Shown here: positions 1 through 60,957 of the stretch, piece by piece
Position numbering within the stretch: the stretch's first letter is position 1
Layout of the letters: every line of letters begins with the position of its first letter
Source: an uncultured Anaerolineales bacterium
GTDB taxonomy: Bacteria; Chloroflexota; Anaerolineae; B4-G1
Length of the DNA: 64,000 nt
Direction: 5' to 3'
Assembly (NCBI GenBank): GCA_964649415.1
Contig: CAZYSK010000024.1
Coordinates: forward strand, 4,711 to 68,710
Notes under the pieces: generated by a model
The model's input: the letters and a program-made list of their open reading frames with translations, nothing else
Told to the model about the DNA's origin: nothing
Database searches by the model: none
Translations under genes and position numbers: made by a program

Positions 1-108
1 ACCGGCGTGCTGTTCGGCCTGGCCACAGTCTGGCTGGCCTATCCATACGTGCAGGAGGCGATGGACGAGTTCCGCGAGTCGCTGCGCCGGCGCCGTGGCT
101 GGGAATGA
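1..108 (+). CDS. 3' end of an unidentified CDS entering from the left edge (last 35 codons)
   Basis: Frame +1 is open from nt 1 to TGA 106-108 (TGVLFGLATVWLAYPYVQEAMDEFRESLRRRRGWE*). The stop overlaps ATG 105 (ATGA). Too short to name. Confidence 0.35.
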   Translation, partial: TGVLFGLATVWLAYPYVQEAMDEFRESLRRRRGWE

Positions 109-13586: not shown

Positions 13587-13620
13587 AGACCCTAAAGGTT
13601 TCAGAGAACCTTTAGGGTCT
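13587..13620. repeat. Palindromic element, family F (AGACCCTAAAGGTT-TCAGAG-AACCTTTAGGGTCT)
   Basis: Perfect 14-bp arms in the intergenic region upstream of ltaE. A second full copy lies inside a CDS at 43183-43216. Confidence 0.85.
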
Positions 13621-13698
13621 GTAAGAGTATGACCTCCCGCGTTTGACGCGGATTTCCTCGGGAAAACAGAGGAGAATGCAGGAACTTGTTCTCTTGCG

Positions 13699-13712
13699 AA
13701 CCTTTAGGGTCT
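13699..13712. repeat. Half copy of family F (AACCTTTAGGGTCT)
   Basis: Identical to the right arm at 13607-13620, 79 nt downstream of the full copy. Confidence 0.6.
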
Positions 13713-25822: not shown

Positions 25823-25839
25823 GTTGCAAGGAGATGATA

Positions 25840-26790: not shown

Positions 26791-26824
26791 GGCGCGCCAT
26801 CGGAATGGCGCCTTTGTAGGAATG
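26791..26824. repeat. Hairpin+GTAG element related to families B2/C (GGCGCGCCAT-CGGA-ATGGCGCC-TTT-GTAGGAATG)
   Basis: Intergenic between mtd and the ATP-grasp gene. It is the reverse-complement counterpart of the 36-nt units at 45628-45735, with a few mismatches. A second small palindrome, GCCATC-TT-GATGGC, lies at 26780-26793. Confidence 0.6.
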
Positions 26825-26890
26825 CTGGGGCGCCGTCGCGGGAGCCTACGTCGTACGAGAGGCCCTGGTTTCTGAGGGTGGTGGAGCGGA

Positions 26891-28129: not shown

Positions 28130-28143
28130 AGGAGACGAGGCGG

Positions 28144-29783: not shown

Positions 29784-31471
29784 TGCTAGGAATCCTGAAC
29801 GGTCGAGTATACGACCCGATAAATGGGGTGAACGGCGAGGTCAAGGACCTGTGGATTGAGGACGGGCGGGTGGTTGCCCCGAGTGACGTGGATCGTGGCG
29901 GCGCGCAGACCATAGATGCGACGGACCTGGTGGTGATGCCCGGCGGTGTGGACGTCCACAGCCACTTTGCTGGGGCCAAGGTGAACTCGGGGCGCAAATT
30001 CCGTCCAGAGGATCACCGTGGGCACGTGCGGGCGCGGGGGAGTACGCCGGATGGGAGTGATACACGATGGCGTGGGGGGCGGATGGGCATGACCCGGTCC
30101 GGCGTGGGCTACACGACCCCAACGACGCATCTGACCGGATACCTCTACGCGGAGATGGGCTACACCACGGTGATGGAGGCTGCCTCTGCTCCCCTGGTGG
30201 CCCGCCATACCCACGAGGAGTTCGACGATGTCCCCATCTTGGACAAAGGCGCGTACATCACGATGGGCAACAATCACTTCATCATGCGCTGCATCCGTGA
30301 TGGGGAGCGGGAGAAGGCCCGGGACTACGTGGCCTGGTTGCTGGACGCGACCAAGGGTTACGCGATCAAGGTCGTCAACCCGGGTGGGGTAGAGAACTGG
30401 AAATGGGGCCAGAACGTGGCGCGCCTGGATGACGAAGTCATCGGTTTCGGTGTCACCCCCAGGCAGATTCTCACCACGCTGTCCTGGATCAATGACGACC
30501 TCGGCCTGCCTCACGTGCCGCACCTCCACAGCCTGAACCTGGGGCAGGCGGGGAACGTGCCCTCGACGATCGAGGTGATTGAGGCGCTCGACGGGCGACG
30601 GGCGCATATCTGTCACCTCCAGTTCTTCAGCTACGGCGGCGAGCCCGGCAAGATGCCGCGCTCCGGCGCGGTGGAGATCGCCCAGGCGGTGAACGCGCAC
30701 CCCCTCCTCACCGTGGATGTGGGGCAGGTGATCTTCGGCGAGGCAACGACGATGACGTCCGATGGCCCCCTCCAGTACCGGTTGCATCAGTTGACGGGCA
30801 ACAAGTGGTTGAACGACGATGTGGAGGGAGAGACGGGCGGCGGGCTGGTGCCCGTGCTCTACAAGCGGTCTAATGCGTTCAACGCGGTGCAATGGCTGAC
30901 CGGCATGGAGCTCTTCCTGCTCATCGAGGATCCGTGGCGGGTCTTCCTCACCACGGACCACCCGAATGCCGGCCCGTTCTTCTACTATCCGCGCGTGATC
31001 AAACTGTTGATGGACCGTGACTACCGGGCAGAGGCGTTGGCGGGCATATCGGCCCGGGTGCGAAGGGGGGCGCTGCTTCCCGAACTGGATCGGGAGTACT
31101 CGCTGTACGAAATCGCGATTATCACCCGAGCGGGCACGGCTCGCGTGCTGGGTCTCAAGAACAAGGGCCATCTGGGGGTGGGGGCCGACGCTGACGTGAC
31201 CATCTATGCACCGCTGGAGGATAAAGAGGAGATGTTCGCCCATCCTCGATACGTGCTCAAGGATGGTGAGGTGGTGGTGAAGGACGGCCGGCTCGTGAGC
31301 GAGCGACCGGGGCGCACGTTCTACGTCAGTCCACCGCACGATCCGGGGATCGAGGCGGACATCCGCGCCCACTTCGAGACGTGCTATAGCATGTCGTTCG
31401 ACAACTACCCGGTCCAGCCAGAGTATCTGCCCCACGGCGACGTTGTGGCCTGTGCAGGGGGCGGACATTGA
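29780..31471 (+). CDS. fwdA: Formylmethanofuran dehydrogenase subunit A (amidohydrolase)
   Basis: 563 aa. VVMPGGVDVHSHF (the HxH metal site), HVPHLHSLN, HICHLQF, FLTTDHPN. The start (GTG 29780 or ATG 29783) overlaps the fwdB stop. Confidence 0.9.
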   Translation: MMLGILNGRVYDPINGVNGEVKDLWIEDGRVVAPSDVDRGGAQTIDATDLVVMPGGVDVHSHFAGAKVNSGRKFRPEDHRGHVRARGSTPDGSDTRWRGGRMGMTRSGVGYTTPTTHLTGYLYAEMGYTTVMEAASAPLVARHTHEEFDDVPILDKGAYITMGNNHFIMRCIRDGEREKARDYVAWLLDATKGYAIKVVNPGGVENWKWGQNVARLDDEVIGFGVTPRQILTTLSWINDDLGLPHVPHLHSLNLGQAGNVPSTIEVIEALDGRRAHICHLQFFSYGGEPGKMPRSGAVEIAQAVNAHPLLTVDVGQVIFGEATTMTSDGPLQYRLHQLTGNKWLNDDVEGETGGGLVPVLYKRSNAFNAVQWLTGMELFLLIEDPWRVFLTTDHPNAGPFFYYPRVIKLLMDRDYRAEALAGISARVRRGALLPELDREYSLYEIAIITRAGTARVLGLKNKGHLGVGADADVTIYAPLEDKEEMFAHPRYVLKDGEVVVKDGRLVSERPGRTFYVSPPHDPGIEADIRAHFETCYSMSFDNYPVQPEYLPHGDVVACAGGGH

Positions 31472-31491
31472 CCGTGCGTCCAGGACACTTG

Positions 31492-33380: not shown

Positions 33381-33399
33381 TATTTGGAGGTAGTAGAGG

Positions 33400-34284
33400 A
33401 TGCACATCAACGGCGTTGAGATTGAGGACACCTTCGCCGAGGCGTTCAAGATGCGGGCTGCACGGTTGCTCATCACTGCGATTAACCCGCAGTGGGCGAT
33501 GACGGCGGCGCAAGTGAGCACGGGTTTCGCCACATCGGTCATCGCATGTGGCTGCGAGGCCGGCATCGAAGGGGTCGTCCCGTCGGACGTGACACCCGAT
33601 GGCCGCCCCGGCGTGAGTATTCTCATCTTCACAATGGGGCCAAAGGGGATGAAGGATCAGTTGATGCGCCGCGTGGGCCAGTGTATCATGACTTGTCCCA
33701 CGACGGCCTGCTTCAACGGCCTGGAGGGCGAGGAGTGGCTCAAGATCGGCGGGACGCTGCGCTACTTCGGCGATGGGTTCCAGGCGAGCAAGCTCGTGGG
33801 GGGGCGGAGGTTCTGGCGGATACCGGTGATGCAGGGCGAGTTCCTGGTGGAAGAGCAGTTCGGCATGAAGAAAGCCGTTGGCGGCGGGAACTTCCTTATC
33901 CTGGGCGAAAGCGTCGAGGCCACGCTTGGGGCGGCCGAACGGGCGGTGGAGGCGATGCACGCAGTGGAGGGGGTGGTGATGCCGTTCCCCGGTGGCATCG
34001 TACGCAGTGGCAGCAAGACGTCGTCACAGTACAAGTTCCTGCATGCCTCGACCAACACCGCGTACTGTCCTAGCCTCCGTCGCCAGACCGACAGCGCGCT
34101 GCCGGAGGGCGTCAATTCCGTGCTGGAGATCGTGATCGATGGGCTGGATGAGGATGCGGTGAGAGAGGCGACGCGGGTGGGCGTCGATGCGGCGTGCCGG
34201 CCCGGCATCGTGCGCATCTCGGCGGGCAACTACGGTGGCACTTTGGGGCAATACCAGATTCATCTGCAGGAGTTGTGGAAGTGA
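33400..34284 (+). CDS. ftr: Formylmethanofuran:tetrahydromethanopterin N-formyltransferase
   Basis: 294 aa. VEIEDTFAEAF.MRAARLLITA, GFATSVIACGCEAGIE, RIPVMQGEFLVEE, GGGNFLILG, MPFPGGIVRSGSK, ISAGNYGG.LG match Ftr/FhcD. Confidence 0.9.
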   Translation: MHINGVEIEDTFAEAFKMRAARLLITAINPQWAMTAAQVSTGFATSVIACGCEAGIEGVVPSDVTPDGRPGVSILIFTMGPKGMKDQLMRRVGQCIMTCPTTACFNGLEGEEWLKIGGTLRYFGDGFQASKLVGGRRFWRIPVMQGEFLVEEQFGMKKAVGGGNFLILGESVEATLGAAERAVEAMHAVEGVVMPFPGGIVRSGSKTSSQYKFLHASTNTAYCPSLRRQTDSALPEGVNSVLEIVIDGLDEDAVREATRVGVDAACRPGIVRISAGNYGGTLGQYQIHLQELWK

Positions 34285-35171
34285 GGAGCACTACACTGCG
34301 TTTGAGGGACTCGGTCACTCTCCCCGTCGAGGCGGAGAGTATATCGCCCGACCGGTTTGCCGGGCTCAGTCAGGAGGAGGTGGCGGCGCTACCACTCCTG
34401 TATGGGCGGCGACCGGTGACTGTCGGCGATCTGTTCGTGGTGGAAGGGGCGGACGTTGCGGACATTCAGGTGGGACGCACTTCAGAAAGTGCGTCCCACC
34501 TGGTTGGTCGTGCGTCCGATGGGGAGGAGATCCTCCTCGAAGGTGATCTCAGTCACGTGAAGCGGATCGGGCAGGGGATGGCCAGTGGACGGATCACCAT
34601 CCGAGGCAATGTCGGCATGCATCTTGGAGCCGAGATGAGCGGGGGGGAGATCGTCGTCCACGGGAACGCCGCGGCGTGGATGGGCGCGCACATGTCCGGT
34701 GGGGTCATCCGCGTGCGGGGGGACGTCGGCCCGATGGCCGGCGCTGCCTATCCGGGAGAGAAGCGCGGTATGCGCGGCGGTTCTATTCTCGTGGAAGGAA
34801 GCGCCGGGCCGCGGGTGGGGGAGCGCATGCGGCGCGGGCTGATCGCCGTCCAGGGCGACGTGGGAGAGTTCTCCGGGGTGCGGATGATCGCCGGATCGCT
34901 CTTCGTGTTTGGCACGTTGGGGCCGAGGGCGGGCGCTGGCATGAAGCGCGGCACGATCGTCGCGCTGGGATCTATTGAGGGCGACCTGCTGCCTGTGTTC
35001 CACTATGCCTGCTCCTATCAGCCGGCCTTCCTGCGCACTTATCTGCGCCACCTGCGCGGGTGGGGTTTGCCCGTCACGTCAGATCACGTCGAGGGAGTCT
35101 TTCGCCGCTACGTTGGTGACATCACGACTCTGGGAAAAGGGGAGATTCTGGTCTATGATCGGCGTCAATGA
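34281..35171 (+). CDS. fwdC: Formylmethanofuran dehydrogenase subunit C
   Basis: 296 aa from GTG 34281 (GTGA overlap with ftr). VTVGDLFVVEG, then the repeated G-x-x-x-G beta-helix motifs (GRITIRGNVGMHLGAEMSGGEIVVHGNAAAWMGAHMSGGVIRVRGDVG...). It carries the family A insert at 34449-34506. Confidence 0.85.
   Translation: MRSTTLRLRDSVTLPVEAESISPDRFAGLSQEEVAALPLLYGRRPVTVGDLFVVEGADVADIQVGRTSESASHLVGRASDGEEILLEGDLSHVKRIGQGMASGRITIRGNVGMHLGAEMSGGEIVVHGNAAAWMGAHMSGGVIRVRGDVGPMAGAAYPGEKRGMRGGSILVEGSAGPRVGERMRRGLIAVQGDVGEFSGVRMIAGSLFVFGTLGPRAGAGMKRGTIVALGSIEGDLLPVFHYACSYQPAFLRTYLRHLRGWGLPVTSDHVEGVFRRYVGDITTLGKGEILVYDRRQ
34449..34506 (+). repeat. Repeat family A copy 1 (58 nt, 16-bp hairpin), in-frame in fwdC
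   Basis: 58/58 identical to 39417-39474. The core is CAGGTGGGACGCACTT-CAGA-AAGTGCGTCCCACCTG (34467-34502). It is translated as ADVADIQVGRTSESASHLV. Confidence 0.9.
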
Positions 35172-36126
35172 ACGCGCAGTGGAGATCGTGCGGCGGATGA
35201 TCGCCGACGCGGAGGGATTGGGGTTGGCGGTGACGCGACTGCCGAACGGGACCACGGTGATCGATGCCGGTGTGCGGGTGCCCGGCTCGTTGGAGGCGGG
35301 ACGGCTGTTTGCTGAAGTATGCCTGGGGGGACTTGGCCAGGTTGGTTTCGCTGAGCTCGATTTCGACGACATGTGGCTGCCGGGAGTTTCCGTCTCGGTG
35401 AGCCACCCAGCGGTGGCGTGCATGGCGTCGCAGTATGCGGGGTGGTCGCTCGAGGCCAAGACCGAGAAGGGAAAGTACTTCGCGATGGGCTCCGGTCCAG
35501 CGCGGGCGCTTTACGCCGGGGAGCCGATCTTCGAGCGGCTGGTGATCCGGGACGAAGCCGATGTGGCAGTCCTGGCACTGGAGGGGCACGAGTTGCCGCC
35601 GGAGGTGGCAGCGGACAAGGTGGCCGAGAAGTGCGGGGTCTCTCCCGATGCGCTCTATCTTCTGGTTGCGCCTACCGCCAGCGTGGTGGGCTCGGTGCAG
35701 ATCGCTGCGCGTGTGGTGGAGACTGGGTTGCACAAGATGTTGGAGGTGTGCGACGGGGAAGACCTTGACATCGCTACGGTGGTGTCTGGCTTCGGCACCT
35801 GTCCCCTAGCGCCCGTCGCGGACGACGACCTGCGGGCCATCGGGCGCACCAACGACGCCGTGCTCTACGCTGGTCGGGCATGGTACACGATGAAGGCGGA
35901 CGACGCGCAGATCGAGGAGATGATTGACTGTTTACCCTCGTCGGCGTCACGGGACTACGGAACCTCCTTCTATGAGCTCTATCAGCGCTACAACGGTGAT
36001 TTCTACAAGATTGACCCGCTGCTCTTCAGTCCGGCCGAGGTGTTTATCAACAACCTGGGCAGTGGCCGCACGTTCCACGCCGGGCGCGTCAACGGCCGAA
36101 TGCTAAGGAAGGTGCTTCTGGAGTGA
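35155..36126 (+). CDS. mch: Methenyltetrahydromethanopterin cyclohydrolase
   Basis: 323 aa. Near-collinear with Methylobacterium/archaeal Mch: RMIADAE, LACMASQYAGW, FAMGSGPARA, GSVQIAARVVE, GRTNDA..YGG, SSASRDYG.F.E....YNGDFY.ID..LFSPAEV. Confidence 0.92.
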   Translation: MIGVNERAVEIVRRMIADAEGLGLAVTRLPNGTTVIDAGVRVPGSLEAGRLFAEVCLGGLGQVGFAELDFDDMWLPGVSVSVSHPAVACMASQYAGWSLEAKTEKGKYFAMGSGPARALYAGEPIFERLVIRDEADVAVLALEGHELPPEVAADKVAEKCGVSPDALYLLVAPTASVVGSVQIAARVVETGLHKMLEVCDGEDLDIATVVSGFGTCPLAPVADDDLRAIGRTNDAVLYAGRAWYTMKADDAQIEEMIDCLPSSASRDYGTSFYELYQRYNGDFYKIDPLLFSPAEVFINNLGSGRTFHAGRVNGRMLRKVLLE

Positions 36127-37043
36127 GAATCGGCATTCTTGGGCAGCGGGGGGGCTGGCACGTGCGTGCCCTGCAGCAGGCATTCGCTCGACGGGGCATC
36201 ACCGCCCCCTCGTTTTCTATTACGTGGCTGAAGGCGCGCCTGTCGGCGCGCCCATGGCTGACGGCCCCGGCCGATCAGGCCGACGCGGATGCGGGCATCC
36301 GCCTTCGGGATCTTGACGGAGCAGCACTGGAAAGCTACGACGTCTTGTTCGTGCGCGCGATCCCTGGGGGCTCCTTGGAGCAGATCATCTTCCGCGTGGA
36401 CGCGCTCCATCGCCTGGAAAACGCCGGCGTACGCATCGTCAACTCACCGGCGGCCATTGAGCGCACGGTGGACAAGTACTACACGTCGACGCTCCTGGAG
36501 GATGCGGGTCTGCCCACACCGCGCACAGTGGTCACCGAACGGTTCGCCGATGCGATGGCAGCGTTCCACGAGCTGGGGGGCGACGTTGTGGTCAAGCCCA
36601 TCTTTGGCTCGGAGGGACGGGGCATCGTGCGCGTCTTGGATCCGGACACGGCCTATCGGGTCTTCCGAGCGTTGGAACTGGGCCGCTACGTGTATTATCT
36701 TCAGGAGTTCGTGCCCCACGGCTGCCAGGACGTGCGTGTCTTTGTCGTCGGCCAGGAGGTGGTGGCCGCGATGACGCGCCGGGGAGAGACGTGGAAGACG
36801 AACGTGGCGCAGGGTGCTAAAGGCGAGCCGCTGGCGATCGACGACGAGCTGCGCGCGATGGCCCTCCAGGCAACCCGTGCATTGGGGGCCGATTACGCGG
36901 GCGTGGACATTCTCCCGCTTTCGGGCGGAGGCTATAGTGTGATCGAGGTCAACGGCATCCCCGGTTGGCGCGGTCTTCGGGCTGCGACCGGGGTGGATGC
37001 TGCTGACTGCCTGGTAGAATACGTTCTGGGAGAAGCGCGATGA
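36123..37043 (+). CDS. mptN: RimK-family ATP-grasp ligase, MptN-like (tetrahydromethanopterin:alpha-L-glutamate ligase by context)
   Basis: 306 aa. DKYYTSTLLEDAGLPTP, VVVKPIFGSEGRGI, YLQEFV, DVRVFVVG, GVDILP, VIEVNGIPGWRG. GTG 36123 overlaps the mch stop. Confidence 0.65.
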   Translation: MRIGILGQRGGWHVRALQQAFARRGITAPSFSITWLKARLSARPWLTAPADQADADAGIRLRDLDGAALESYDVLFVRAIPGGSLEQIIFRVDALHRLENAGVRIVNSPAAIERTVDKYYTSTLLEDAGLPTPRTVVTERFADAMAAFHELGGDVVVKPIFGSEGRGIVRVLDPDTAYRVFRALELGRYVYYLQEFVPHGCQDVRVFVVGQEVVAAMTRRGETWKTNVAQGAKGEPLAIDDELRAMALQATRALGADYAGVDILPLSGGGYSVIEVNGIPGWRGLRAATGVDAADCLVEYVLGEAR

Positions 37044-37927
37044 CACCTCTAGGACTGGACAAGATCGCATGGGCTGTCCACATTGCATGCCTGTTCGAGG
37101 TATGTGCCGACAAGCCGGGCAACGTGACCTGGGGCAAGGATTTCTGGGACACGCGCTTTGTCGACTTCCTGGCCAGTGCTATCGCCATTGGGCCTGCCCT
37201 GCGGGACGCGACTCACACCTCCGTTGGCCAGACCATCCTGCGGGCGGTGAACGACACCCACCAATTCGTGAGCACTAATACCAACCTGGGGATGGTCCTT
37301 CTGCTGGCTCCGTTGGCAAAGGCGGCCGGGCGGGGTCATCCCAATGGACTGCGGCTGGCTGTGAGCGAGGTATTGGAGGCGTTGACCGTGGAGGATGCCC
37401 GCTTGACGTTCGAGGCGATCCGCCTTGCCGCTCCGGGGGGCCTGGGCAGCGATGGTCGCTACGACGTGCACAGGGCAGACGTGGACGTGACGCTCAGAGA
37501 AGCTATGCGGGTGGCTCAGGATCGAGATACCGTGGCGCGGGAGTACGTGACGGACTTCGAAGTGACTTTCGAGCTTGGATACGCGACGCTCCGCCGCTTG
37601 TGGGCAGAGGGCCGCGGATTCTCAGAGTCCATTGTCCAGACTTCCCTCACTATCCTGTCGCAGATGCCGGATACGCTGATCGCGCGCAAGGAAGGAATGG
37701 ACGTTGCTTTGGACGTATCGCGGCGCGCCGGTGTCGTGTTACAGCACGGAGGGGCTTTCTCCGAGCAGGGCCGGGCGGCGTTGCGGGCATTCGATCTGTC
37801 GATCCGGGATGACAAACATCGTCTGAATCCGGGCACCACGGCGGACTTGATCGCAGCTTCGCTCTTCGTCTTCCTGACGGAGGGGGGCGCGTTCGAGGAC
37901 TTCCCGGAGTTGCTTGCACGTTGGTGA
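37040..37927 (+). CDS. Triphosphoribosyl-dephospho-CoA synthase (CitG/MdcB)-family protein ('Orf7' of C1 clusters)
   Basis: 295 aa. EVCADKPGNV, TNTNLGMVLLLAPL, DTLIARK, NPGTTADLIAASLF. ATGA overlap with mptN. Confidence 0.7.
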   Translation: MTPLGLDKIAWAVHIACLFEVCADKPGNVTWGKDFWDTRFVDFLASAIAIGPALRDATHTSVGQTILRAVNDTHQFVSTNTNLGMVLLLAPLAKAAGRGHPNGLRLAVSEVLEALTVEDARLTFEAIRLAAPGGLGSDGRYDVHRADVDVTLREAMRVAQDRDTVAREYVTDFEVTFELGYATLRRLWAEGRGFSESIVQTSLTILSQMPDTLIARKEGMDVALDVSRRAGVVLQHGGAFSEQGRAALRAFDLSIRDDKHRLNPGTTADLIAASLFVFLTEGGAFEDFPELLARW

Positions 37928-38003: not shown

Positions 38004-39095
38004 ATGGACCGCCGGCATCCTGCCGGCATGACTCGGGCGCACGATACGGGTCCGCAAGGCCCGCGCTTGCTGTGCGAAGGGTTCGCGGTGTTGACGGCAG
38101 ATGGCCTGATCTTCACGGTCAAGGGGTTGGTTCATCCCCCTGAGCGGGTGATCGCGTATCTGCGGTATCTCCCCGATCCAGAGGGCGGTCGGGAGCGCCT
38201 GGGCGTGCGCTACCGGCGCGTCTACCACTTCGAGGAGCAATTGGAAGTGCTCCAGAATCGCTTCCCGCACTATCTGTGGGACGATGAGGTGTTCGGGGTG
38301 CGTTTGCAGAGCGTGCCTCGGCGTTTTGTCCGGGAGGCATTCGATCCCTGCCTCTGCCTGGCTGATCTCCGTGACCGGGGTCCGGCCGACCTGGTCGAGG
38401 AACACGCCCTGGGTCTGTCGGAGCTGCTGAGAGACGTGGCCGGTGTGCCCGGCGAGGATCTGGGTGTCTCGGGGTCGGTGATGGTGGGCACGCACACAGA
38501 GAACTCGGACATTGACCTCCTCGTATATGGTGACGCGTCGGGGCGGGCCGTCCACCGAGCGCTTCAGCGTCTGTTGGATGAGCCGGGGAGGCCCGTGCGT
38601 CGCCTTGACGGGCAGGAGATGGCCGCACTGCACGCCGAGCATCGGCCGGACACCCCACTGTCTTTCGAGGATTTCTCCCGGCTTCAGAATCGCAAGGTCA
38701 ACGAGGGGCGCTATCGGGGGCGGGAGTATTTCATCCGCTTCGTGAAGCGACCATCGGAGGTGAGTGAGCGGTATGGGGATCGCCGCTTTGAGGCACTGGG
38801 GCAGGCCACGATTCGGGCGGAGGTGACGGACGCCCGTGATGCGATTTTCACGCCCTGTCGCTACACCGTCGCAAACGCGACGGTTCTGGATGGCCCGCCC
38901 GCGCCCGACTTGCGCGAGGTGGTCTCCTTTCGGGGGCGCTTCAGCGACCAGGTGCGCGTAGGTGAGTGGGCCATCGCCCGGGGGAGCCTGGAGCGGGTTG
39001 TGGTCGAAGGCGAGCGGGTGTATCATCACCTGGTCGTCGGTGGACAGGCGGGCGACTACGTGCGCCCTGAGCGCGTGACGTCCCCCGTTCAGTAG
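38004..39095 (+). CDS. Pol-beta-superfamily nucleotidyltransferase-like protein with C-terminal OB-like domain (paralog 1)
   Basis: 363 aa from ATG 38004 (GGAGG 10 nt upstream; ORF-track TTG 37914 is an alternative). NTase signature LGVSGSVMVGTHTENSDIDLLVYG. Clearly paralogous to 42119-43303 over its full length. Confidence 0.6.
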   Translation: MDRRHPAGMTRAHDTGPQGPRLLCEGFAVLTADGLIFTVKGLVHPPERVIAYLRYLPDPEGGRERLGVRYRRVYHFEEQLEVLQNRFPHYLWDDEVFGVRLQSVPRRFVREAFDPCLCLADLRDRGPADLVEEHALGLSELLRDVAGVPGEDLGVSGSVMVGTHTENSDIDLLVYGDASGRAVHRALQRLLDEPGRPVRRLDGQEMAALHAEHRPDTPLSFEDFSRLQNRKVNEGRYRGREYFIRFVKRPSEVSERYGDRRFEALGQATIRAEVTDARDAIFTPCRYTVANATVLDGPPAPDLREVVSFRGRFSDQVRVGEWAIARGSLERVVVEGERVYHHLVVGGQAGDYVRPERVTSPVQ

Positions 39096-39128: not shown

Positions 39129-40070
39129 GTGCCGGAGTTGATGGCTTTGGAGTCTGAAGACAGGGAGTTGGATACGAAACGGGCTGCGCTGAGGGAAACG
39201 TTCGCCGATATGGAGCGCGTGCTGGTCGCCTACTCTGGCGGCGTGGACAGCGCGTTTCTGCTGTGGGCTGCCTTGGACGCGCTGGGCCCGGAGCGTGTGC
39301 TGGCCGTGACCGCTTCCTCGCCCATATTCGCCCGCCGGGAGTTGAGGGCAGCCGAGGACTTGGCGCATCGCTTGGGGGCTCCCCATCGTTTCGTGCGCAC
39401 CATGCAACTGGAGGATGCGGACGTTGCGGACATTCAGGTGGGACGCACTTCAGAAAGTGCGTCCCACCTGGTTGATGGTGCGCCCGTGAAATTCGCGACG
39501 AATCCGCCGGAGCGATGCTATCTTTGCAAGCGGGAGATATTCGCCCGGCTGGTGGAGGTGGCCCGCGAGGAGGAAATACCCTGGGTCGTCGAGGGCTCCA
39601 ACCTGGACGACCGTGACGAGTACCGGCCAGGCACCCGGGCAGTGCGTGAGTTGGACGTGCGAAGCCCGTTGGAGGAGGTCGGACTGACCAAGGCGGACAT
39701 CCGGGCTCTCTCCCGGCGCGTGGGCTTGCCGACGTGGAATCAGCCAGCGCAGACCTGTTTGGCCACGCGCTTCCCGCACGGCACGCCGATCACGCGTGAG
39801 CGGCTGGAGCGGGTGGAGGCCGCTGAGGTGGTGTTGAGGGAGATGGGATTCGGCGAGCTGCGGGTGCGGGATCACGTCGACCCTGCGGCGGGTCCTATCG
39901 CCCGCATCGAGGTGCTCCGTGAGGATGTGGCACGGCTGGCGCGACCGGAAGCCGCGGAACGGGTGGTGGCCGCGCTGCGGGGGCTGGGCTACGACTACGT
40001 CACGTTGGACCTGGGGGGCTACCGGCGCGGTGGCCTCAGTGGGCAGGTTGGTGAAGTAGTAGATTGGTAG
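39129..40070 (+). CDS. larE: LarE, ATP-dependent sulfur transferase of nickel-pincer (NPN) cofactor biosynthesis (PP-loop ATP pyrophosphatase)
   Basis: 313 aa. PP-loop VAYSGGVDSAFL, DDRDEYRPG, CLATRFPHG, RVRDH, YVTLDLGGYRRG. There are three Cys: CYLC 39516-39527 and TGT 39756-39758. It carries the family A insert at 39417-39474. Confidence 0.85.
   Translation: MPELMALESEDRELDTKRAALRETFADMERVLVAYSGGVDSAFLLWAALDALGPERVLAVTASSPIFARRELRAAEDLAHRLGAPHRFVRTMQLEDADVADIQVGRTSESASHLVDGAPVKFATNPPERCYLCKREIFARLVEVAREEEIPWVVEGSNLDDRDEYRPGTRAVRELDVRSPLEEVGLTKADIRALSRRVGLPTWNQPAQTCLATRFPHGTPITRERLERVEAAEVVLREMGFGELRVRDHVDPAAGPIARIEVLREDVARLARPEAAERVVAALRGLGYDYVTLDLGGYRRGGLSGQVGEVVDW
39417..39474 (+). repeat. 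Repeat family A copy 2, in-frame in larE
   Basis: Identical to 34449-34506 and in the same reading frame (ADVADIQVGRTSESASHLV). The hairpin is at 39435-39470. Confidence 0.9.
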
Positions 40071-40131
40071 ATTGGTACATTGGTACATTGGTAGATTGGT
40101 AGATTGGTACATTGGTACATTGGTCAATCGG
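40060..40131. repeat. Octanucleotide tandem array [(TAGATTGG)2(TACATTGG)2]x2 + TCAATCGG
   Basis: Nine 8-nt units from 40060 to 40131. The second unit contains the larE stop codon TAG (40068-40070). The array fills the larE-larB spacer. Confidence 0.9.
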
Positions 40132-42118: not shown

Positions 42119-43303
42119 GTGACAGATATGCAGGAGAGGCGCAAGCCCAAGGACCGGGACTTCCTCCGTACCCGCGAGGGCATGTTCTTCTGTGTGACCG
42201 GTTATCTGCACCCGCCGGATCGGTATACCGCCTATCTCAAGTATTCGCCTGCTGCGTCGGGGAAGTGGCACAATGCGGAGACGGCCTACCAGCGGGAACT
42301 GCCTTACTACCACGTCCGCAGTGTGGAGGATACAATCCAGCATCTGGAGGCGCATTACCCCTGGTACGTCGCGGATTGCCCCGTCCGGAATATCCGCTTC
42401 TCAATGGTGCCCCGGGAATACGTCGCCCGCTACTACGATCCACAGGAGCGGTTGAGGGAGATACTGGCGCATCCTGGCGACTCGCTGGAGGAGGAGGTGT
42501 GTGGTCTGGCGACCGAGATCGCCGAGACCGCCGGCGTGCCCGTCGGCGATCTGGGTATCACGGGATCGATCCTGATCGGATTGCACAACCCGACCTTCTC
42601 GGATATTGATCTGGTGGTGTATGGGCGGCAGAGCGCCCGTCGGGTGCGCCGGGCCTTGGGCGCGGGGGACAACGAATCGGGAAAGGAACGAAGGGGGAGA
42701 GCAGCGCAGTCCGCTGCGCCGCGAATCCGCGAGTTGGGCGCGGCGTTCATCGAGCGCTGGAGCCGGGGAATCGCGGAGCGCTTTCCCTTGACGGTGAGTG
42801 AGGCGCAGTATCTCGCCCGCCGGCGTTGGAACTACGGCTGGTACGGGGAGCGGTATTTCTCGATCCACCCGATCCGCACGGATGACGAGATCACCGAGCA
42901 CTACGGAGATCACATCTACCGCGGCCAGGGAGCCGCACGAATCCGGGCCACCGTTGTCGGCACGAGCGACGCGCTGTTCATGCCCGCCGGGTACCTGCTG
43001 GCGGACGTGGAGGTCTTGGAAGGCCTTGCAGAGGCGGCGGATGTCCGGGAACTGGTCTCCTACGAGGGTCTCTATCGCGACGTGGCCGACGTGGGGCAGA
43101 GAATCGAGGCCAAGGGGAACGTGGAGCGAGTGGACGCGGACATTGCGGACATTGATAGCGCGTCCGTCCGTGCGTCCGCGGCAGACCCTAAAGGTTTCGG
43201 AAAACCTTTAGGGTCTGACATCAGGCTGGTGGTCGGCACGAGCGCCCTCAAGGGTGAGGGGTACATACGGCCGCTTCCCGCCGGGGATAGCGCGGACAAC
43301 TGA
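42119..43303 (+). CDS. Pol-beta-superfamily nucleotidyltransferase-like protein (paralog 2)
   Basis: 394 aa. LGITGSILIGLHNPTFSDIDLVVYG. Collinear with paralog 1 except for two extra segments, which coincide with the repeat elements at 42664-42720 and 43136-43216. Its stop overlaps the next ATG (TGATG). Confidence 0.6.
   Translation: MTDMQERRKPKDRDFLRTREGMFFCVTGYLHPPDRYTAYLKYSPAASGKWHNAETAYQRELPYYHVRSVEDTIQHLEAHYPWYVADCPVRNIRFSMVPREYVARYYDPQERLREILAHPGDSLEEEVCGLATEIAETAGVPVGDLGITGSILIGLHNPTFSDIDLVVYGRQSARRVRRALGAGDNESGKERRGRAAQSAAPRIRELGAAFIERWSRGIAERFPLTVSEAQYLARRRWNYGWYGERYFSIHPIRTDDEITEHYGDHIYRGQGAARIRATVVGTSDALFMPAGYLLADVEVLEGLAEAADVRELVSYEGLYRDVADVGQRIEAKGNVERVDADIADIDSASVRASAADPKGFGKPLGSDIRLVVGTSALKGEGYIRPLPAGDSADN
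42664..42720 (+). repeat. Composite repeat B copy 2 (B1 42664-42697 + B2 hairpin with flipped loop 42704-42719), in-frame
   Basis: B1 is 34/34 identical to 27559-27592. The hairpin is GCGCAG-TCCG-CTGCGC, against GCGCAG-CGGA-CTGCGC in copy 1. It is translated as GDNESGKERRGRAAQSAAP. Confidence 0.85.
43136..43216 (+). repeat. Double hairpin element in-frame in paralog 2: GCGGAC-repeat hairpin (43136-43179) + family F palindrome (43183-43216)
   Basis: GCGGACATTGCGGACATT...GCGTCCGTCCGTGCGTCCGC, then AGACCCTAAAGGTTT-CGGA-AAACCTTTAGGGTCT. It is translated as DADIADIDSASVRASAADPKGFGKPLGSD. Confidence 0.8.
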
Positions 43304-44670
43304 TGGCGGAAGCGGTCTTCCTGATATACGTCGCCACGGTCATGGTGATGGGCGTCAAGGCCAAAGCTAAGACGCTGGAGACGTTCATCCTGGGCGACGT
43401 GCTGGACACGAAGACGATGGTGGCCACAATCGTGTCCACGTTCTACGGCGCGTCTGCCATCCTTGGCGGGGTGAGCCTGACGTACCAGTTGGGGCTGGAC
43501 GTAATCTGGTTCATGGTGCCCTTCTATCTGGGCAACGTGGCCATCATCCTCTTGCTCAAGCGGATCGCTTCCTCAGAAAGGTGCACGCTGCCAGGCTTCC
43601 TGGGCGACTTCTACGGCAATGGGTTCGCTGTGGCAAGTTCGATGCTGTTGGTGACTCTGTGCCTCGTTCCGGAGGAGATCATCGCCGGGGGAAAGATCCT
43701 ATCCCTGTTCACGTCAATGCCCGTGGAGGCGGCGATGGGCGCTATGACCTTCGTGTTGGTGGTGCCTGTTGCCATCGGCGGGATGAAAGCAGACGTGATA
43801 ACGGATATCGCTCAGTTCGCCCTGATGTTGATCATGCTTGGCGTCATGGTGCTGTTCCTCGGCCATACGGGCCGCCTGGGCCTGCAGCCGGACCTGGACT
43901 CGGGTGTCCCGCCCGGGCATCTGACTCTCTGCTCGTCTCTATCGCTGCAGGAAATCGCCGTGTTCTTCGTCTCCTTCTTCTTCCTGCCGATCACCTCAGC
44001 ACCTCTGTACCTGCGCTTCTTTGCCTCGGAGTCAGAAGCGTGCTCCAGGAAATCGGTGCTGTCGTCTGTCGCGATATGGATGGTCGTAGACGCGATCATC
44101 GTGCTCTGCGGCTTCGCGGCCCTGCGGATGTTTCCGAACCTGGACGATCCAGATATGTCGTTCGTCCTGCTTGGGATGGCGATGCCCCCGGTGGGTCGGG
44201 GCGTGTTCACTATAGGGCTGCTGGCCGCGATCATGAGCACGGTGAACTCCTTTCTCCAGTCCGGGGCGTCAAGCCTGGCGCACGACGCATTCAGGCATTT
44301 CATGCCTGGAACCAGTGACCGGCGATTGCTCGCGCTGTCCAGGGTGTTCGTGATTGTGCTGGGCTTGCTGAGCCTGGCGCTGGCTCTGTGGTTCCAGATG
44401 ATCGTGCCGGCGCTGTTGTTCACGTTGAGTATGTGGACGGCCGGGGTGCTGGTTCCCACTCTGGCGGCTCTCAGCGGCGTGCGGTTGAGGAAGCGGTCGG
44501 CGTGGGCCAGTCTGGCGGCCGGGACACTATCCTGTCTGGCCTGGCAGATGGCGCAGCCGTTTCAGGTAGATGCGTTGTTCGTCGGCCTGGGATGCTCTGT
44601 GCTCGCCGCGCTTATCTCGGAAGTCCTGCCCGGTCGCGCTCAGGGGGCGCAGCGGACTGCGCCTTGGTAG
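43303..44670 (+). CDS. Sodium:solute symporter (SSS) family transporter
   Basis: 455 aa with about 12 TM segments. GGMKADVITDIAQF-type motif. The last 8 codons and the stop (GAQRTAPW*) are encoded by repeat unit 1 at 44644. Confidence 0.75.
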   Translation: MAEAVFLIYVATVMVMGVKAKAKTLETFILGDVLDTKTMVATIVSTFYGASAILGGVSLTYQLGLDVIWFMVPFYLGNVAIILLLKRIASSERCTLPGFLGDFYGNGFAVASSMLLVTLCLVPEEIIAGGKILSLFTSMPVEAAMGAMTFVLVVPVAIGGMKADVITDIAQFALMLIMLGVMVLFLGHTGRLGLQPDLDSGVPPGHLTLCSSLSLQEIAVFFVSFFFLPITSAPLYLRFFASESEACSRKSVLSSVAIWMVVDAIIVLCGFAALRMFPNLDDPDMSFVLLGMAMPPVGRGVFTIGLLAAIMSTVNSFLQSGASSLAHDAFRHFMPGTSDRRLLALSRVFVIVLGLLSLALALWFQMIVPALLFTLSMWTAGVLVPTLAALSGVRLRKRSAWASLAAGTLSCLAWQMAQPFQVDALFVGLGCSVLAALISEVLPGRAQGAQRTAPW

Positions 44671-44742
44671 AGGAGCGGGGCGCAGCGGACTGCGCCTTGG
44701 TAGAGGAGCGGGGCGCAGCGGACTGCGCCTTGGTAGAGGAGC
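44644..44742 (+). repeat. Three perfect tandem 33-nt units of hairpin module B2 (GGGGCGCAGCGGACTGCGCCTTGGTAGAGGAGC)
   Basis: Units at 44644-44676, 44677-44709 and 44710-44742, then a degenerate start of a fourth unit. Each has the GGCGCAG-CGGA-CTGCGCC hairpin followed by TTGGTAG. Confidence 0.9.
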
Positions 44743-44798
44743 GGGGTGAAGCGGTGAATCCGCGAGGAGAAAGGGTCGGGCCACGACTGGGCCTCAAT

Positions 44799-45627: not shown

Positions 45628-45735
45628 CATCCCTACAAAGGCGCCGTTCTGACGGCGCACTAACATCCCTACAAAGGCGCCGTTCTGACGGCGCGCTAAC
45701 ATCCCTACAAAGGCGCCGTTCTGACGGCGCGCTAA
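45628..45735. repeat. Three tandem 36-nt units, family C (CATCCCTACAAAGGCGCCGTTCTGACGGCGCRCTAA)
   Basis: Units at 45628-45663, 45664-45699 and 45700-45735, between convergent genes. Hairpin GCGCCGT-TCTG-ACGGCGC with CTAC 3 nt upstream. The last unit supplies the stop codon (45732-45734) of the minus-strand lipoprotein gene. Confidence 0.9.
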
Positions 45736-46608: not shown

Positions 46609-46734
46609 GGGGGCGGCGCGTATGGAAACGCGCCCTACGTTGGCCGATGGTTCGGCGGGGGCGGCGTGTATGGAAACGCGCCCTACGTTGGCTGATGGTT
46701 CGGCGGGGGCGGCGCGTATGGAAACGCGCCCTAC
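46609..46734. repeat. Tandem 48-nt units x2.6, family D (GGGGGCGGCGCGTATGGAAACGCGCCCTACGTTGGCYGATGGTTCGGC)
   Basis: Units at 46609-46656 and 46657-46704, plus a partial unit at 46705-46734. Hairpin GGCGCGT-ATGGAA-ACGCGCC is followed directly by CTAC. The array fills the spacer between the FtsX permease stop and the lipoprotein start. Confidence 0.9.
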
Positions 46735-50105: not shown

Positions 50106-50224
50106 ACTGGAAACGTCAAACGTTGAGAGTTGTCATTGGCAAACCGGGCCGACTACCGCGGATGGAGAAATACACGATAGTACACTGGAAACGTCAAACG
50201 TTGAGAGTTGTCATTGGCAAACCG
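50106..50224. repeat. Two identical 41-nt direct repeats, family E (ACTGGAAACGTCAAACGTTGAGAGTTGTCATTGGCAAACCG), 78 nt apart
   Basis: Copies at 50106-50146 and 50184-50224, immediately upstream of the ABC ATPase gene. Each contains the small palindrome AACGT-CAA-ACGTT. Confidence 0.85.
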
Positions 50225-52696: not shown

Positions 52697-52726
52697 GCAG
52701 AACCGGCCTTCCCTGGCCGGTTCTGC
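52697..52726 (-). other. 12-bp intercistronic hairpin between kduD and kdgK
   Basis: GCAGAACCGGCC-TTCCCT-GGCCGGTTCTGC. It has no clear T-tract, so it may be a partial terminator or an mRNA stabiliser. Confidence 0.45.
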
Positions 52727-60925: not shown

Positions 60926-60957
60926 CAGGTTGGGAGCCCGCGTGGGCTCCCAACCTG
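60926..60957 (+). other. 14-bp perfect hairpin after the binding-protein gene
   Basis: CAGGTTGGGAGCCC-GCGT-GGGCTCCCAACCTG with no T-tract. It is positioned like the mRNA-stabilising hairpins that follow SBP genes in sugar ABC operons. Confidence 0.5.

What the first reader, a model, noticed from the sequence alone, without database searches (positions are those of the whole stretch)
43136..43216. A double-hairpin element (GCGGAC-repeat hairpin + family F palindrome) is translated inside nucleotidyltransferase paralog 2
GCGGACATTGCGGACATT (43136-43153) can pair with GTCCGTCCGTGCGTCCGC (43162-43179). It is followed by the perfect palindrome AGACCCTAAAGGTTT-CGGA-AAACCTTTAGGGTCT (43183-43216). 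Together they encode DADIADIDSASVRASAADPKGFGKPLGSD. Paralog 1 has only ERVVVEGERVYHHLVVGG at the corresponding place. The 5' module resembles the 5' end of family A (GCGGACGTTGCGGACATT) and encodes a similar peptide (DADIADI vs DADVADI). Different palindromes therefore share a common left arm.
Basis: seen in the sequence. Interest (0 to 1): 0.7.

Follow-up and report, generated by a model that had tools for sequence, protein, structure and literature searches.

The report
Two tiny repeats translated inside gene
Two unrelated miniature DNA repeats have landed one after the other, in frame, in a floppy surface loop of a Chloroflexota enzyme gene; one of them is a 33-34-base palindrome that recurs, with identical arms, in well over a hundred genomes and in a phage.

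Summary
The sequence is exactly as described and far from chance. It is not one "double-hairpin element" but two independent repeats, inserted side by side.

- **Module 1 (43136-43177).** Two 9-nt GCGGACATT units plus two 12-nt ..GCGTCC units, read as ADI-ADI-DSAS-VRAS. It belongs to a lineage-restricted in-frame repeat family. Its hairpin is weak (DNA fold z -1.05).
- **Module 2 (43183-43216).** A copy of a sharply bounded palindrome, AGACCCTAAAGGTTT-loop-AAACCTTTAGGGTCT, with no target-site duplication. A Mu-like phage contig carries 8 copies. Most copies are intergenic and often terminator-like, for example just after tRNA-Ser. Some sit in frame inside ValRS, Mfd, HsdM and other genes.

The closest orthologue has module 1 but an empty site for module 2. 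68 of 72 homologues have neither. AlphaFold places the insert in a disordered loop between two beta-strands of an otherwise confident fold.

Best reading: REP/RPE-like selfish or terminator-derived repeats, tolerated in a permissive loop. How they move is unknown. The kind is known (Rickettsia RPEs, intragenic REPs). The family, its small size and its cross-phylum spread appear undescribed.

The parts
42119..43303 (+). Host gene: 394-aa uncharacterised nucleotidyltransferase ('paralog 2'). It lies downstream of larE-larB-larC, and its stop codon overlaps the start of the SSF transporter gene.
   Evidence: ORF. Pfam NTP_transf_2, 26.7 bits. Gene call identical on the public contig. 892 homologues, mostly about 347 aa. 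AlphaFold pLDDT 88.8, pTM 0.87.
43136..43153 (+). Module 1, left half: two tandem 9-nt units GCGGACATT, read as ADI-ADI.
   Evidence: TRF period 9, 2.1 copies. The same doublet occurs at 34449 and 39417 and in L004, L006, L007, L044, L071, L086, L087.
43154..43177 (+). Module 1, right half: two 12-nt units, GATAGCGCGTCC and GTCCGTGCGTCC, read as DSAS-VRAS. They are partly complementary to the left units (CGGAC/GTCCG).
   Evidence: The same architecture, (GCGGACRTT)2-3 + GRYCGTGCGTCC + GTYCGTGCGTCC, occurs in L087, L044, L006, L012 and L004. 21-nt unit search. Always read in phase 0 in verified genes.
43183..43216 (+). Module 2: the 'F' palindrome, with 15-nt arms AGACCCTAAAGGTTT / AAACCTTTAGGGTCT and loop CGGA. 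Here it extends to 16 bp by C43182:G43217. It is read as DPKGFGKPLGS.
   Evidence: The site is empty in orthologue L003. Family copies.
42664..42719 (+). A second in-frame repeat insert in the same gene: a 34-nt G/A-rich repeat (42664-42697) followed by the small hairpin GCGCAG-TCCG-CTGCGC (42704-42719). It is read as GDNESGKERRGRAAQSAAP.
   Evidence: 42664-42697 is identical to 27559-27592. Absent from 66 of 72 homologues. AlphaFold pLDDT about 60 for residues 181-200.
13587..13620 (.). Second F palindrome in the window (14-bp arms, loop TCAGAG). It is intergenic and has no GCGGAC arms.
13698..13712 (.). Solo right arm of F (GAACCTTTAGGGTCT), 77 nt downstream of the full copy.
34449..34518 (+). 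Family A composite: GCGGACGTT-GCGGACATT, then the 36-nt palindrome CAGGTGGGACGCACTT-CAGA-AAGTGCGTCCCACCTG, then GTTGGTCGTGCGTCCG. It sits in frame in a GXGXG (FhcC-like) gene.
39417..39486 (+). Family A composite in frame in larE, read as ADVADIQVGRTSESASHLV. It is absent from the larE of the syntenic relative L004.
   Evidence: The LarE HMM match is split into two stretches.
31461..31481 (+). Single 21-nt unit GCGGACATTGACCGTGCGTCC at the end of the Amidohydro_3 gene.
60926..60957 (.). Another perfect CAG...CTG palindrome (14-bp arms, 4-nt loop). It is intergenic, 16 nt after a stop codon.

Best explanation
The 81-nt segment is the product of two separate insertions of miniature repeats into one permissive loop of the nucleotidyltransferase gene.

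**Step 1 (older).** A copy of a lineage-restricted repeat landed between the two beta-strands ...NVERVD and RLVVGT. This repeat is built from 9-nt GCGGACRTT units and 12-nt ..CGTGCGTCC units. All unit lengths are multiples of three, and the repeat is always read as ADI/ADV + xRAS.

**Step 2 (younger).** A copy of an unrelated palindrome, AGACCCTAAAGGTTT-loop-AAACCTTTAGGGTCT, was inserted 5 nt downstream of the first repeat. This element is sharply bounded, usually 33 nt long, and has no target-site duplication.

**Why both persist (inferred).**
- The net insert is a multiple of three.
- The one stop-free frame of the palindrome is the frame in use.
- The extra 25 residues form a disordered loop that does not disturb the fold.

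**The palindrome family.** It behaves like a REP-like or terminator-like dispersed element:
- It is mostly intergenic.
- It is often followed by a T-run, sometimes directly after tRNA genes.
- It is multi-copy within genomes and present in a Mu-like phage.
- It is occasionally fixed in frame inside genes.

**Mobilisation (inferred only).** Copies are probably made in trans from a single-stranded hairpin intermediate, by machinery not encoded nearby.
For: **Shown: this is an insertion, not ancestral sequence.**
- 68 of 72 homologues have 22 residues where this protein has 47 (alignments).

**Shown: the two modules are separable and differ in age.**
- Orthologue L003 (85% aa identity) has a diverged module 1, followed by GGCAG-TTCG-CAGGCTGG.
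- The window has GGCAG-ACCC...GGGTCTGACAT-CAGGCTGG at the same place, a net +33 nt.
- The syntenic relative L004 lacks both modules at this site. It carries 12 units of the GCGGAC family at four other sites in the same operon.

**Shown: module 1 is a recurrent element.**
- L087, L044, L006, L012 and L004 share the (9 nt)2-3 + (12 nt)2 layout.
- It is read in phase 0 in all verified genes.

**Shown: module 2 is an independent dispersed element.**
- In 115 copies, position -1 is A in 112 and position +1 is T in 114. There is no conservation beyond that, no target-site duplication, and loops vary.
- No gene is shared between the neighbourhoods.
- One Mu-like phage contig carries 8 copies, in intergenic gaps.

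**Shown: in-frame copies occur in bona fide genes elsewhere.**
- ValRS, Mfd/TRCF, HsdM and the CO-dehydrogenase flavoprotein carry them, at domain boundaries and in the same two peptide frames.

**Shown: terminator-like use.**
- Copies lie 4-9 nt after tRNA-Ser(CGA) in three MAGs and after tRNA-Pro(GGG) in two.
- 23 of 119 copies have a run of at least 6 T in the 8 nt on one side.

**Shown: the loop is permissive.**
- AlphaFold gives pLDDT below 50 only for residues 342-364 (apart from the C-terminal tail, 391-394). These lie between strands 328-340 and 367-372.
- P0003 and P0071 carry unrelated inserts in the same loop.

**Shown: not an assembly artefact.**
- JGI and ENA assemblies give the same contig and genes around this operon, and the cluster of this exact protein counts 2 contigs. 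A Logan contig covers larB, larC and the first 191 residues only.
Against: - No transposase or RAYT was found. None is in the window. The copying mechanism is unsupported.
- Translation of the insert is inferred from the intact frame only. There are no proteomic data.
- Removing the 34-nt palindrome alone would shift the frame. The event therefore needs a 1-nt adjustment, or a 33-nt ancestor, and the diverged flanks (ACAT against TTCG) cannot resolve which.
- L003 could have lost the palindrome by precise excision rather than never having had it.
- The identical stem across orders could reflect function (terminator, or a binding site) rather than selfish spread.
- The collection scan required exact arms. 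Stem conservation in the retrieved set is therefore partly ascertainment.
Confidence: 0.75

Rival explanations
1. One composite mobile element. The GCGGAC hairpin and the palindrome move together, and different palindromes are carried by a common left arm.
For: - The left arm is shared with family A.
- In family A, and in the L003/L086 variant, a palindrome really is nested between GCGGAC.. and ..GCGTCC arms. The A composite occurs as an identical 58-nt block in two genes.
Against: - L003 has module 1 without the palindrome.
- The palindrome occurs without arms at 13587 and in 119 genomic copies elsewhere.
- Here the palindrome lies outside a complete arm pair.
- No second copy of the 81-nt block exists in the window or in any fetched locus.
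Confidence: 0.04
2. The insert is kept for a function rather than merely tolerated. One version: the 16-bp mRNA hairpin, 84 nt before the stop codon that overlaps the SSF start, acts as a processing site or a 3'-exonuclease barrier. It could also act as a ribosome pause that sets the expression ratio of the lar/NTase genes to the transporter. Another version: the new loop changes substrate or partner binding of the OB-like C-terminal domain.
For: - The hairpin is very stable.
- Family members sit at gene ends and after tRNA genes like terminators or stabilisers.
- REP hairpins are known to stabilise upstream mRNA (established knowledge; reviewed in PMC3733652).
- The insert lies in a loop of an OB-fold-like domain.
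Against: - The closest orthologue, and all but one of 72 homologues, do without the palindrome.
- No T-run follows this copy.
- The same loop carries unrelated inserts in other lineages.
- The insert is predicted to be disordered.
Confidence: 0.15
3. Local origin. The segment arose in place by replication slippage and snap-back (hairpin-templated) duplication, not by insertion of pre-existing elements.
For: - The 9-nt unit is tandemly duplicated.
- Copy number of the 9-, 12- and 21-nt units varies between loci, as expected from slippage.
- The family A palindrome contains the right-arm motif GTGCGTCC and its complement.
Against: - The same module 1 layout occurs at unrelated loci and in other metagenomes.
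- The palindrome's 15-nt arms are identical to those of more than 100 copies in other organisms. Independent local origin cannot produce that.
Confidence: 0.05
4. The gene is a decaying pseudogene or an assembly chimera, and the insert is never translated.
For: The gene has accumulated at least three or four repeat insertions. A paralog exists nearby that could cover the function.
Against: - The full-length frame is intact despite a palindrome with stops in two of three frames on each strand.
- All conserved residues are kept.
- The AlphaFold model is confident.
- Independent JGI and ENA assemblies give the same contig around this operon, and the exact protein is on record from 2 contigs.
- Essential genes such as ValRS and Mfd carry the same element in frame in other genomes.
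Confidence: 0.03

Closest known systems
Rickettsia palindromic elements (RPE). Ogata et al. 2000, Science 290:347, from my own knowledge; summarised in PMC10969869 and PMC3733652.
   Same: - Palindromic dispersed repeats inserted in frame in unrelated, functional genes.
- One reading frame is used consistently, giving a conserved peptide.
- Insertions are thought to sit in surface loops compatible with the fold.
   Different: - RPEs are about 100-150 bp and confined to Rickettsia. The elements here are 33-45 nt and occur in Chloroflexota, with the palindrome also in Geobacterales and a phage.
- RPE-type short repeats end in a CGTC tag (PMC3733652). The F palindrome has no tag.
- F is mostly intergenic: only about 8-12% of copies lie in long ORFs.
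REP elements of the GTAG and CGTC superfamilies, including intragenic REPs (Di Nocera et al. 2013, PMC3733652), and REPIN/RAYT systems (PMC3116915).
   Same: - 20-40 bp palindromes, dispersed and multi-copy.
- Mostly downstream of coding regions.
- Some lie inside genes and encode extra residues in linkers or loops.
- No target-site duplication.
   Different: - No GTAG or CGTC tag and no 3-bp tail.
- The stem is 15 bp and perfect, against 5-13 bp (GTAG) or 8-9 bp (CGTC) in Table 1 of PMC3733652.
- No RAYT was found near any copy.
- In my understanding (not checked in the papers read) REP families are species- or genus-specific, whereas F keeps identical arms across several Chloroflexota orders and another phylum.
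[quoted passage not shown]
   Same: A dispersed repeat whose hairpin plus T-run looks like an intrinsic terminator. Copies lie at gene ends and after tRNA genes.
   Different: - The copy in this finding has no T-run and lies inside a gene.
- F is far shorter than a typical MITE.
- F is not restricted to one species.
Small dispersed repeats (SDR) of heterocystous cyanobacteria (Elhai et al. 2008, Genome Res 18:1484). The paper was not held. [quoted passage not shown]
   Same: Module 1 behaves this way:
- units of about 9-21 nt;
- single or in tandem with variable copy number;
- dispersed to different sites in related genomes;
- able to host nested palindromes.
   Different: - Different sequence and a different phylum.
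- Here the units are nearly always read in one frame inside genes.
- The defining features of SDRs could not be checked because the paper was not available.
MITEs (PMC10969869).
   Same: - Terminal inverted repeats.
- Non-autonomous.
- Variants exist in which the two F arms flank 60-80 nt of other sequence.
   Different: - No target-site duplication.
- 33 nt instead of 70-300 bp.
- No parent IS with the same ends was seen.

Membership tests
REP (GTAG/CGTC-tagged; RAYT-associated) | Short (20-40 bp) palindromic unit present in many dispersed copies | tested here: met
   F is 33-34 nt. There are 2 copies in the 64-kb window, several per MAG (for example at least 9 loci from one Caldilinea MAG), and 8 in one phage contig.
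REP (GTAG/CGTC-tagged; RAYT-associated) | Conserved GTAG or CGTC tetranucleotide at one end, with a 3-bp tail | tested here: not met
   Flanks of 115 copies: only A(-1) and T(+1), which extend the stem, are conserved. Positions beyond show no consensus. Module 1 units end in GCGTCC, which contains CGTC, but not as an external tag. That case is inconclusive.
REP (GTAG/CGTC-tagged; RAYT-associated) | Association with a RAYT (IS200/IS605-type Y1 transposase) gene in the genome | tested here: inconclusive
   No such Pfam family is on record for the called genes covering most of the window, and a Pfam scan of seven further ORFs found none. No gene recurs near copies. Whole genomes could not be scanned.
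REP (GTAG/CGTC-tagged; RAYT-associated) | Predominantly extragenic, downstream of ORFs | tested here: met
   105 of 119 copies are not spanned by an ORF with at least 40 codons on each side. Copies in the phage lie in gaps between co-directional genes.
Rickettsia palindromic elements (RPE) | In-frame insertion in functional genes with one conserved reading frame and peptide | tested here: met
   DPKGFxKPLGS (4-nt loop) or TLKVxxTFRV (3-nt loop) in NTase2, ValRS, Mfd, HsdM and the CO-DH flavoprotein. ADI/ADV + xRAS for module 1.
Rickettsia palindromic elements (RPE) | Element length of about 100-150 bp, homologous to RPE-1..10, in the Rickettsia lineage | tested here: not met
   33-45 nt, in Chloroflexota, Geobacterales and a phage. 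No sequence relation is expected, and none was looked for beyond Rfam.
MITE | Terminal inverted repeats flanked by a target-site duplication | tested here: not met
   TIR-like 15-nt arms are present. Direct repeats of 2-5 nt at the flanks occur no more often than in shuffled pairings.
Intrinsic (Rho-independent) terminator | Stable stem-loop immediately followed by a T-run on the transcribed strand | tested here: not met
   The copy at 43183-43216 is followed by GACATCAGGCTGG. In the family, 23 of 119 copies have at least 6 T in the 8 nt on one side, and several follow tRNA genes. Some members qualify; this copy does not.
CRISPR repeat | Regular array of repeats separated by unique spacers of similar length | tested here: not met
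   Copies are single. The two-copy case, L128, is a tandem duplication whose flanks are near-identical. TRF finds no array at the site.
Known RNA family (Rfam 15) | Match to a curated covariance model | tested here: not met
   No match at gathering score in the whole window. The only sub-threshold match near the site is a chance miRNA hit at E 3.9.
PARCEL (palindromic amphipathic repeat coding elements, PMC2996958) | 25-residue amphipathic motif in tandem arrays encoded by dyad-symmetric DNA | tested here: not met
   The units here encode 3, 4 or 7 residues (module 1), or a single 11-residue hydrophilic peptide (F).

The most novel reading that the evidence does not exclude
The 33-nt palindrome AGACCCTAAAGGTTT-NNN-AAACCTTTAGGGTCT may be the product of an undescribed hairpin-copying system that moves between hosts. 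Such a system, possibly carried by or trafficked through Mu-like phages, would make clean insertions without target-site duplication. These occur in several Chloroflexota orders and in Geobacterales or Desulfuromonadaceae. That would make it one of the smallest mobile elements known with a cross-phylum range. Its copies are repeatedly co-opted as terminators, and occasionally as protein loops. The GCGGAC 9/12/21-nt family would be a second, lineage-restricted system that also hosts nested palindromes.
Probability: 0.2. Interest if true: 0.75.

Novelty: new member of a known kind. Interest (0 to 1): 0.5.

Why it matters
- **A second, independent case.** In-frame colonisation of working genes by palindromic repeats is best known from Rickettsia and a few REP-rich bacteria. 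Here the same thing happens in free-living Chloroflexota, with elements three to four times smaller. Such inserts can add 10-25 residue disordered loops to enzymes without breaking them.
- **Annotation.** Unexplained length differences between orthologues in these MAGs are largely repeat insertions. Examples are LarE at 313 aa against 269, and the NTase at 394 aa against about 347.
- **The palindrome family.** Its arms are identical across distant orders, another phylum and a phage, and it has sharp ends and no duplication. It is a convenient handle for finding whatever copies such hairpins. It is also a ready marker for terminators in Chloroflexota, whose transcription signals are, to my knowledge (not checked here), little studied.

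Tried and rejected
1. **Hairpin-loop targeting by the palindrome.** Nested cases suggested it: the phage loci L240/L241, the Geobacter copies, and adjacency to module 1. But the flanks of 121 copies are no more complementary than shuffled left/right pairs (Mann-Whitney p 0.32). Rejected as a general rule. Adjacency here is better explained by a permissive protein loop.
2. **Target-site duplication or a conserved target motif.** None found.
3. **An associated gene.** Clustering ORFs within 2.5 kb of 119 copies gave no family shared by more than 12 loci.
4. **Known RNA families.** None.
5. **Plasmid and phage GenBank collections.** No real match.
6. **Literature search for the sequence itself.** Only chance primer-like hits. 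No paper on Chloroflexota REPs or MITEs beyond one mention in PMC3733652.
7. **Metagenome scan with GCGGACRTTGCGGACRTT.** The pattern was too unspecific. Most of the 119 stretches are unrelated genes encoding ADI/ADV repeats.
8. **Viral scans for the 21-nt unit and the family A palindrome.** No matches.
9. **Elhai et al. 2008.** The paper could not be read.
10. **Foldseek against the PDB.** No significant full-length relative of the host protein. There is only weak OB-fold similarity for the C-terminal part.
Full report
**1. What is in the sequence**

The palindrome extends by one C:G pair to a perfect 16-bp stem with a 4-nt loop, at 43182-43217.

The segment lies in the + strand ORF 42119-43303. 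The ORF is 394 aa and matches Pfam NTP_transf_2 weakly. The segment is read as DADIADIDSASVRASAADPKGFGKPLGSD.

The window is part of a 125-kb metagenome contig that was assembled independently by JGI and ENA. Homologues of the gene come from Chloroflexota/Anaerolineae MAGs.

Neither module is a chance feature.
- The left motif has 3 matches against 0.15 expected.
- The palindrome has 2 matches against 0 expected.
- As single-stranded DNA, the palindrome folds with z = -9.5.
- The first 'hairpin' folds no better than its shuffles (z = -1.05).
- The 101-nt RNA segment gives -49.8 kcal/mol, z = -4.86, mostly owing to the palindrome.

**2. It is an insertion, and it has two parts of different age**

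In an alignment of 72 homologues, 68 have 22 residues between the conserved EA(K/R)G and LV(I/V)GT motifs. This protein has 47. Paralog 1 (38004-39095, 36% identical) also lacks the insert.

The closest orthologue is P0002 on contig L003, 85% identical. There, GTGGAC is followed by a diverged version of module 1 and then by GGCAG-TTCG-CAGGCTGG. The window has GGCAG-ACCC...GGGTCTGACAT-CAGGCTGG, a net +33 nt or 11 codons. So module 1 was already present when the palindrome arrived, or the palindrome was lost precisely from L003.

A syntenic relative, L004 (about 72% identity across the operon), has neither module at this site.

**3. Module 1 is a member of a lineage-restricted in-frame repeat family**

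The 42 nt at 43136-43177 are two 9-nt units, GCGGACATT, followed by two 12-nt units, GATAGCGCGTCC and GTCCGTGCGTCC.

The same layout, (GCGGACRTT)2-3 + GRYCGTGCGTCC + GTYCGTGCGTCC, recurs in L087, L044, L006, L012 and L004. A 21-nt form, GCGGACRTTGRYCGTGCGTCC, occurs singly at window 31461. It occurs twelve times in L004, including a run of four tandem copies inside paralog 1 of that organism.

In every verified gene it is read in the same phase, as ADI/ADV followed by DRAS/GRAS/VRAS. All unit lengths are multiples of three.

Window and L004 carry the repeat at different sites in orthologous genes, so it has been dispersed and not just inherited.

Other palindromes can sit between the left and right units:
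- the 36-nt 'family A' palindrome, at 34467 and 39435 in the window and in L081;
- a CCGACCG-TCYG-CGGTCGG palindrome, in L003 and L086.

**4. Module 2 is an independent, widely distributed palindrome**

Among the listed records, hosts include:
- Anaerolineales, Caldilineaceae, Herpetosiphon, Chloroflexia, Villigracilis and Brevefilum MAGs;
- at least nine stretches from Geobacter, Geobacteraceae or Desulfuromonadaceae MAGs.

One such contig carries an APC permease whose named relatives are Desulfobacterota and Proteobacteria, not Chloroflexota. This agrees with the record's taxonomy.

In 115 copies with usable flanks:
- the base before the core is A in 112;
- the base after it is T in 114;
- nothing beyond that is conserved;
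- the stem is rarely extended;
- flanking direct repeats are at chance level.

The element is therefore AGACCCTAAAGGTTT-loop-AAACCTTTAGGGTCT, usually 33 nt with a 3-nt loop, and the loops vary.

No gene recurs next to it.

A 36-kb contig from IMG/VR carries eight copies in gaps between co-directional genes. The contig encodes a MuA-like transposase, portal, terminase, tape-measure protein and baseplate hub, so it is a Mu-like phage.

Degenerate copies, solo arms and forms with 60-80 nt between the arms also exist. One is a solo right arm at 13698-13712 in the window.

**5. What the palindrome does elsewhere**

Most copies are intergenic.
- 23 of 119 have at least 6 T in the 8 nt on one side. 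My rough binomial estimate of the chance expectation is about 9.
- Copies lie 4-9 nt after tRNA-Ser(CGA) in three MAGs from different lineages, and after tRNA-Pro(GGG) in two.

So many copies look like intrinsic terminators.

About one copy in ten is spanned by a long ORF. Pfam confirms real host genes:
- ValRS, between the catalytic and anticodon-binding domains;
- Mfd/TRCF;
- HsdM;
- the CO-dehydrogenase flavoprotein, exactly between its two domains.

Each strand of the palindrome has stops (TAA, TAG) in two of its three frames. A 4-nt loop leaves only DPKGFxKPLGS open. A 3-nt loop leaves only TLKVxxTFRV open. Either orientation gives the same peptide. This follows directly from the sequence and matches.

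**6. Why it is tolerated here**

AlphaFold2 on the 72-sequence alignment gives a confident model (pLDDT 88.8, pTM 0.87).
- Segments below pLDDT 50 are residues 342-355 and 357-364, which are this insert, and the last four residues.
- The insert lies between strands 328-340 and 367-372.
- The other dip, to a mean of about 60 over residues 181-200, coincides with a second repeat insert.

The C-terminal part has weak OB-fold similarity.

The same loop carries unrelated inserts in P0003 and P0071. Flanks of the palindrome family are not unusually complementary. I therefore attribute the side-by-side position of the two modules to a permissive loop acting as a selective filter, not to targeting of hairpins.

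**7. Mechanism: shown and inferred**

Shown:
- two separable repeats;
- the order of arrival, or a precise loss;
- sharp boundaries and no duplication;
- in-frame retention;
- location in a disordered loop;
- the broad distribution of the palindrome and its terminator-like contexts.

Inferred:
- that the insert is translated, since the frame is intact and essential genes elsewhere carry the element;
- that it is neutral or nearly so;
- that copies are made in trans through a single-stranded hairpin intermediate. This is by analogy with REP/RAYT and IS200/IS605, and no enzyme has been identified.

The 34-nt length of this copy means that the original event was either a 33-nt element that later gained a loop base, or came with a 1-nt target change. 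The diverged flanks do not settle this.

**8. Comparison with known systems**

The phenomenon matches Rickettsia palindromic elements and intragenic REPs (PMC10969869, PMC3733652). Those too are palindromic repeats inserted in frame, with a conserved peptide frame, in loops or linkers of working proteins.

Membership fails for each named family:
- no GTAG or CGTC tag, and a 15-bp perfect stem that lies outside the ranges tabulated for REPs (PMC3733652);
- far shorter than RPEs or MITEs;
- no target-site duplication;
- no RAYT seen;
- no Rfam family.

Module 1 resembles the cyanobacterial 'small dispersed repeats' as summarised in PMC2884548, but that paper could not be read.

I found no description of either family in the searchable literature. 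That is absence of evidence only.

**9. Verdict**

What is there is ordinary in kind, namely selfish or terminator-derived miniature repeats tolerated in a protein loop. It belongs to families that appear undescribed.

The notable point is the palindrome's invariant arms across Chloroflexota orders, a second phylum and a Mu-like phage. That is wider than the species- or genus-level range I understand to be usual for REP families, and it hints at an unidentified mobilising system.

Noticed in passing
window 25720-37927: A full tetrahydromethanopterin-linked C1 module sits directly upstream of NTase1-larE-larB-larC-NTase2-SSF. It comprises Mpt_N (MtdB-like), two ATP-grasp genes, Fhc/Fwd-like subunits (Molybdopterin, Amidohydro_3, GXGXG), FTR, MCH, DUF6513/pterin-binding, Flavoprotein and CitG. 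The larB-larC-NTase order is kept in three related contigs (L004, L251, L252), and the SSF gene follows it in L004 and L251. No larA is seen.
   Followed up: partly
window 42664-42719 and 27559-27619: The same composite is inserted in frame in NTase2 and in an ATP-grasp gene (26891-28129). It is a 34-nt G/A-rich repeat plus the small hairpin GCGCAG-loop-CTGCGC. The hairpin loop is flipped between the two copies (TCCG against CGGA), as expected for opposite orientations of a palindromic stem.
   Followed up: partly
window 44644-44754, 45628-45735, 46609-46734, 50106-50224, 40059-40124: There are several short tandem arrays:
- 33 nt x 3.4, whose core is the same GGCGCAG-CGGA-CTGCGCC hairpin;
- 36 nt x 3;
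- 48 nt x 2.6;
- a repeat pair 78 nt apart (41 nt identical);
- the 8-mer GTACATTG x 8.

They lie in short gaps between genes or over annotated gene starts. The called start of the AP_endonuc_2 gene probably runs through one array. In L004 the equivalent gap holds GCGGAC-family units instead.
   Followed up: partly
window 34449-34518 and 39417-39486: An identical 58-nt block of family A (arms plus the 36-nt palindrome) sits in frame in two unrelated genes, an FhcC-like GXGXG gene and larE. It gives the same peptide, ADVADIQVGRTSESASHLV, in both. The LarE HMM match is split in two by it.
   Followed up: yes
window 60926-60957 and 52697-52726: Two further perfect palindromes lie in intergenic positions: CAGGTTGGGAGCCC-GCGT-GGGCTCCCAACCTG and GCAGAACCGGCC-TTCCCT-GGCCGGTTCTGC. 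Like family A, and like F in this window, they begin with CAG and end with CTG. Whether that is meaningful is unknown. In other genomes the base outside the F arms is not conserved.
   Followed up: partly
L240, L242, L243, L246 (IMGVR_UViG_3300033405_000047): A Mu-like phage contig of 36 kb carries 8 copies of the F palindrome between its structural genes. At one site in L240, and one in the related contig L241, the palindrome is nested inside another inverted repeat (GTGATCGCTCAATGCA ... TCGGTTCAACGATCAC).
   Followed up: partly
L127, L129, L166, L177, L230, L231 (L127-L177 are titled Geobacter/Geobacteraceae MAGs; titles for L230/L231 were not shown): In these genomes the F palindrome is the core of a longer repeat with its own outer inverted repeats (TCAAGATGACATTTTATA-[F]-TGTCCTGAAATAAGTGTAATCTTGA). 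This suggests a MITE-like derivative specific to that lineage.
   Followed up: no
L140 2803-2880 (Caldilinea aerophila MAG): A tandem array of at least four 20-nt units, AGACCCTAAAGGTCTGATTT. The unit is a shortened self-complementary variant of the F arm. The array runs into a stretch of N.
   Followed up: no
L148 1621, L180 457, L154 2066; L130 7096, L214 2241: The F palindrome lies 4-9 nt downstream of tRNA-Ser(CGA) in three MAGs of different lineages, and downstream of tRNA-Pro(GGG) in two. This is either an old conserved terminator or a recurrent landing site.
   Followed up: partly
window 42119-43303 and 38004-39095: The two NTase paralogs have no NCBIfam match and no significant full-length structural relative in the PDB. 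The model shows an N-terminal beta domain, an NTase core and an OB-fold-like C-terminal domain. Their conserved linkage to larB, larC and larE suggests a role connected with the nickel-pincer cofactor.
   Followed up: partly
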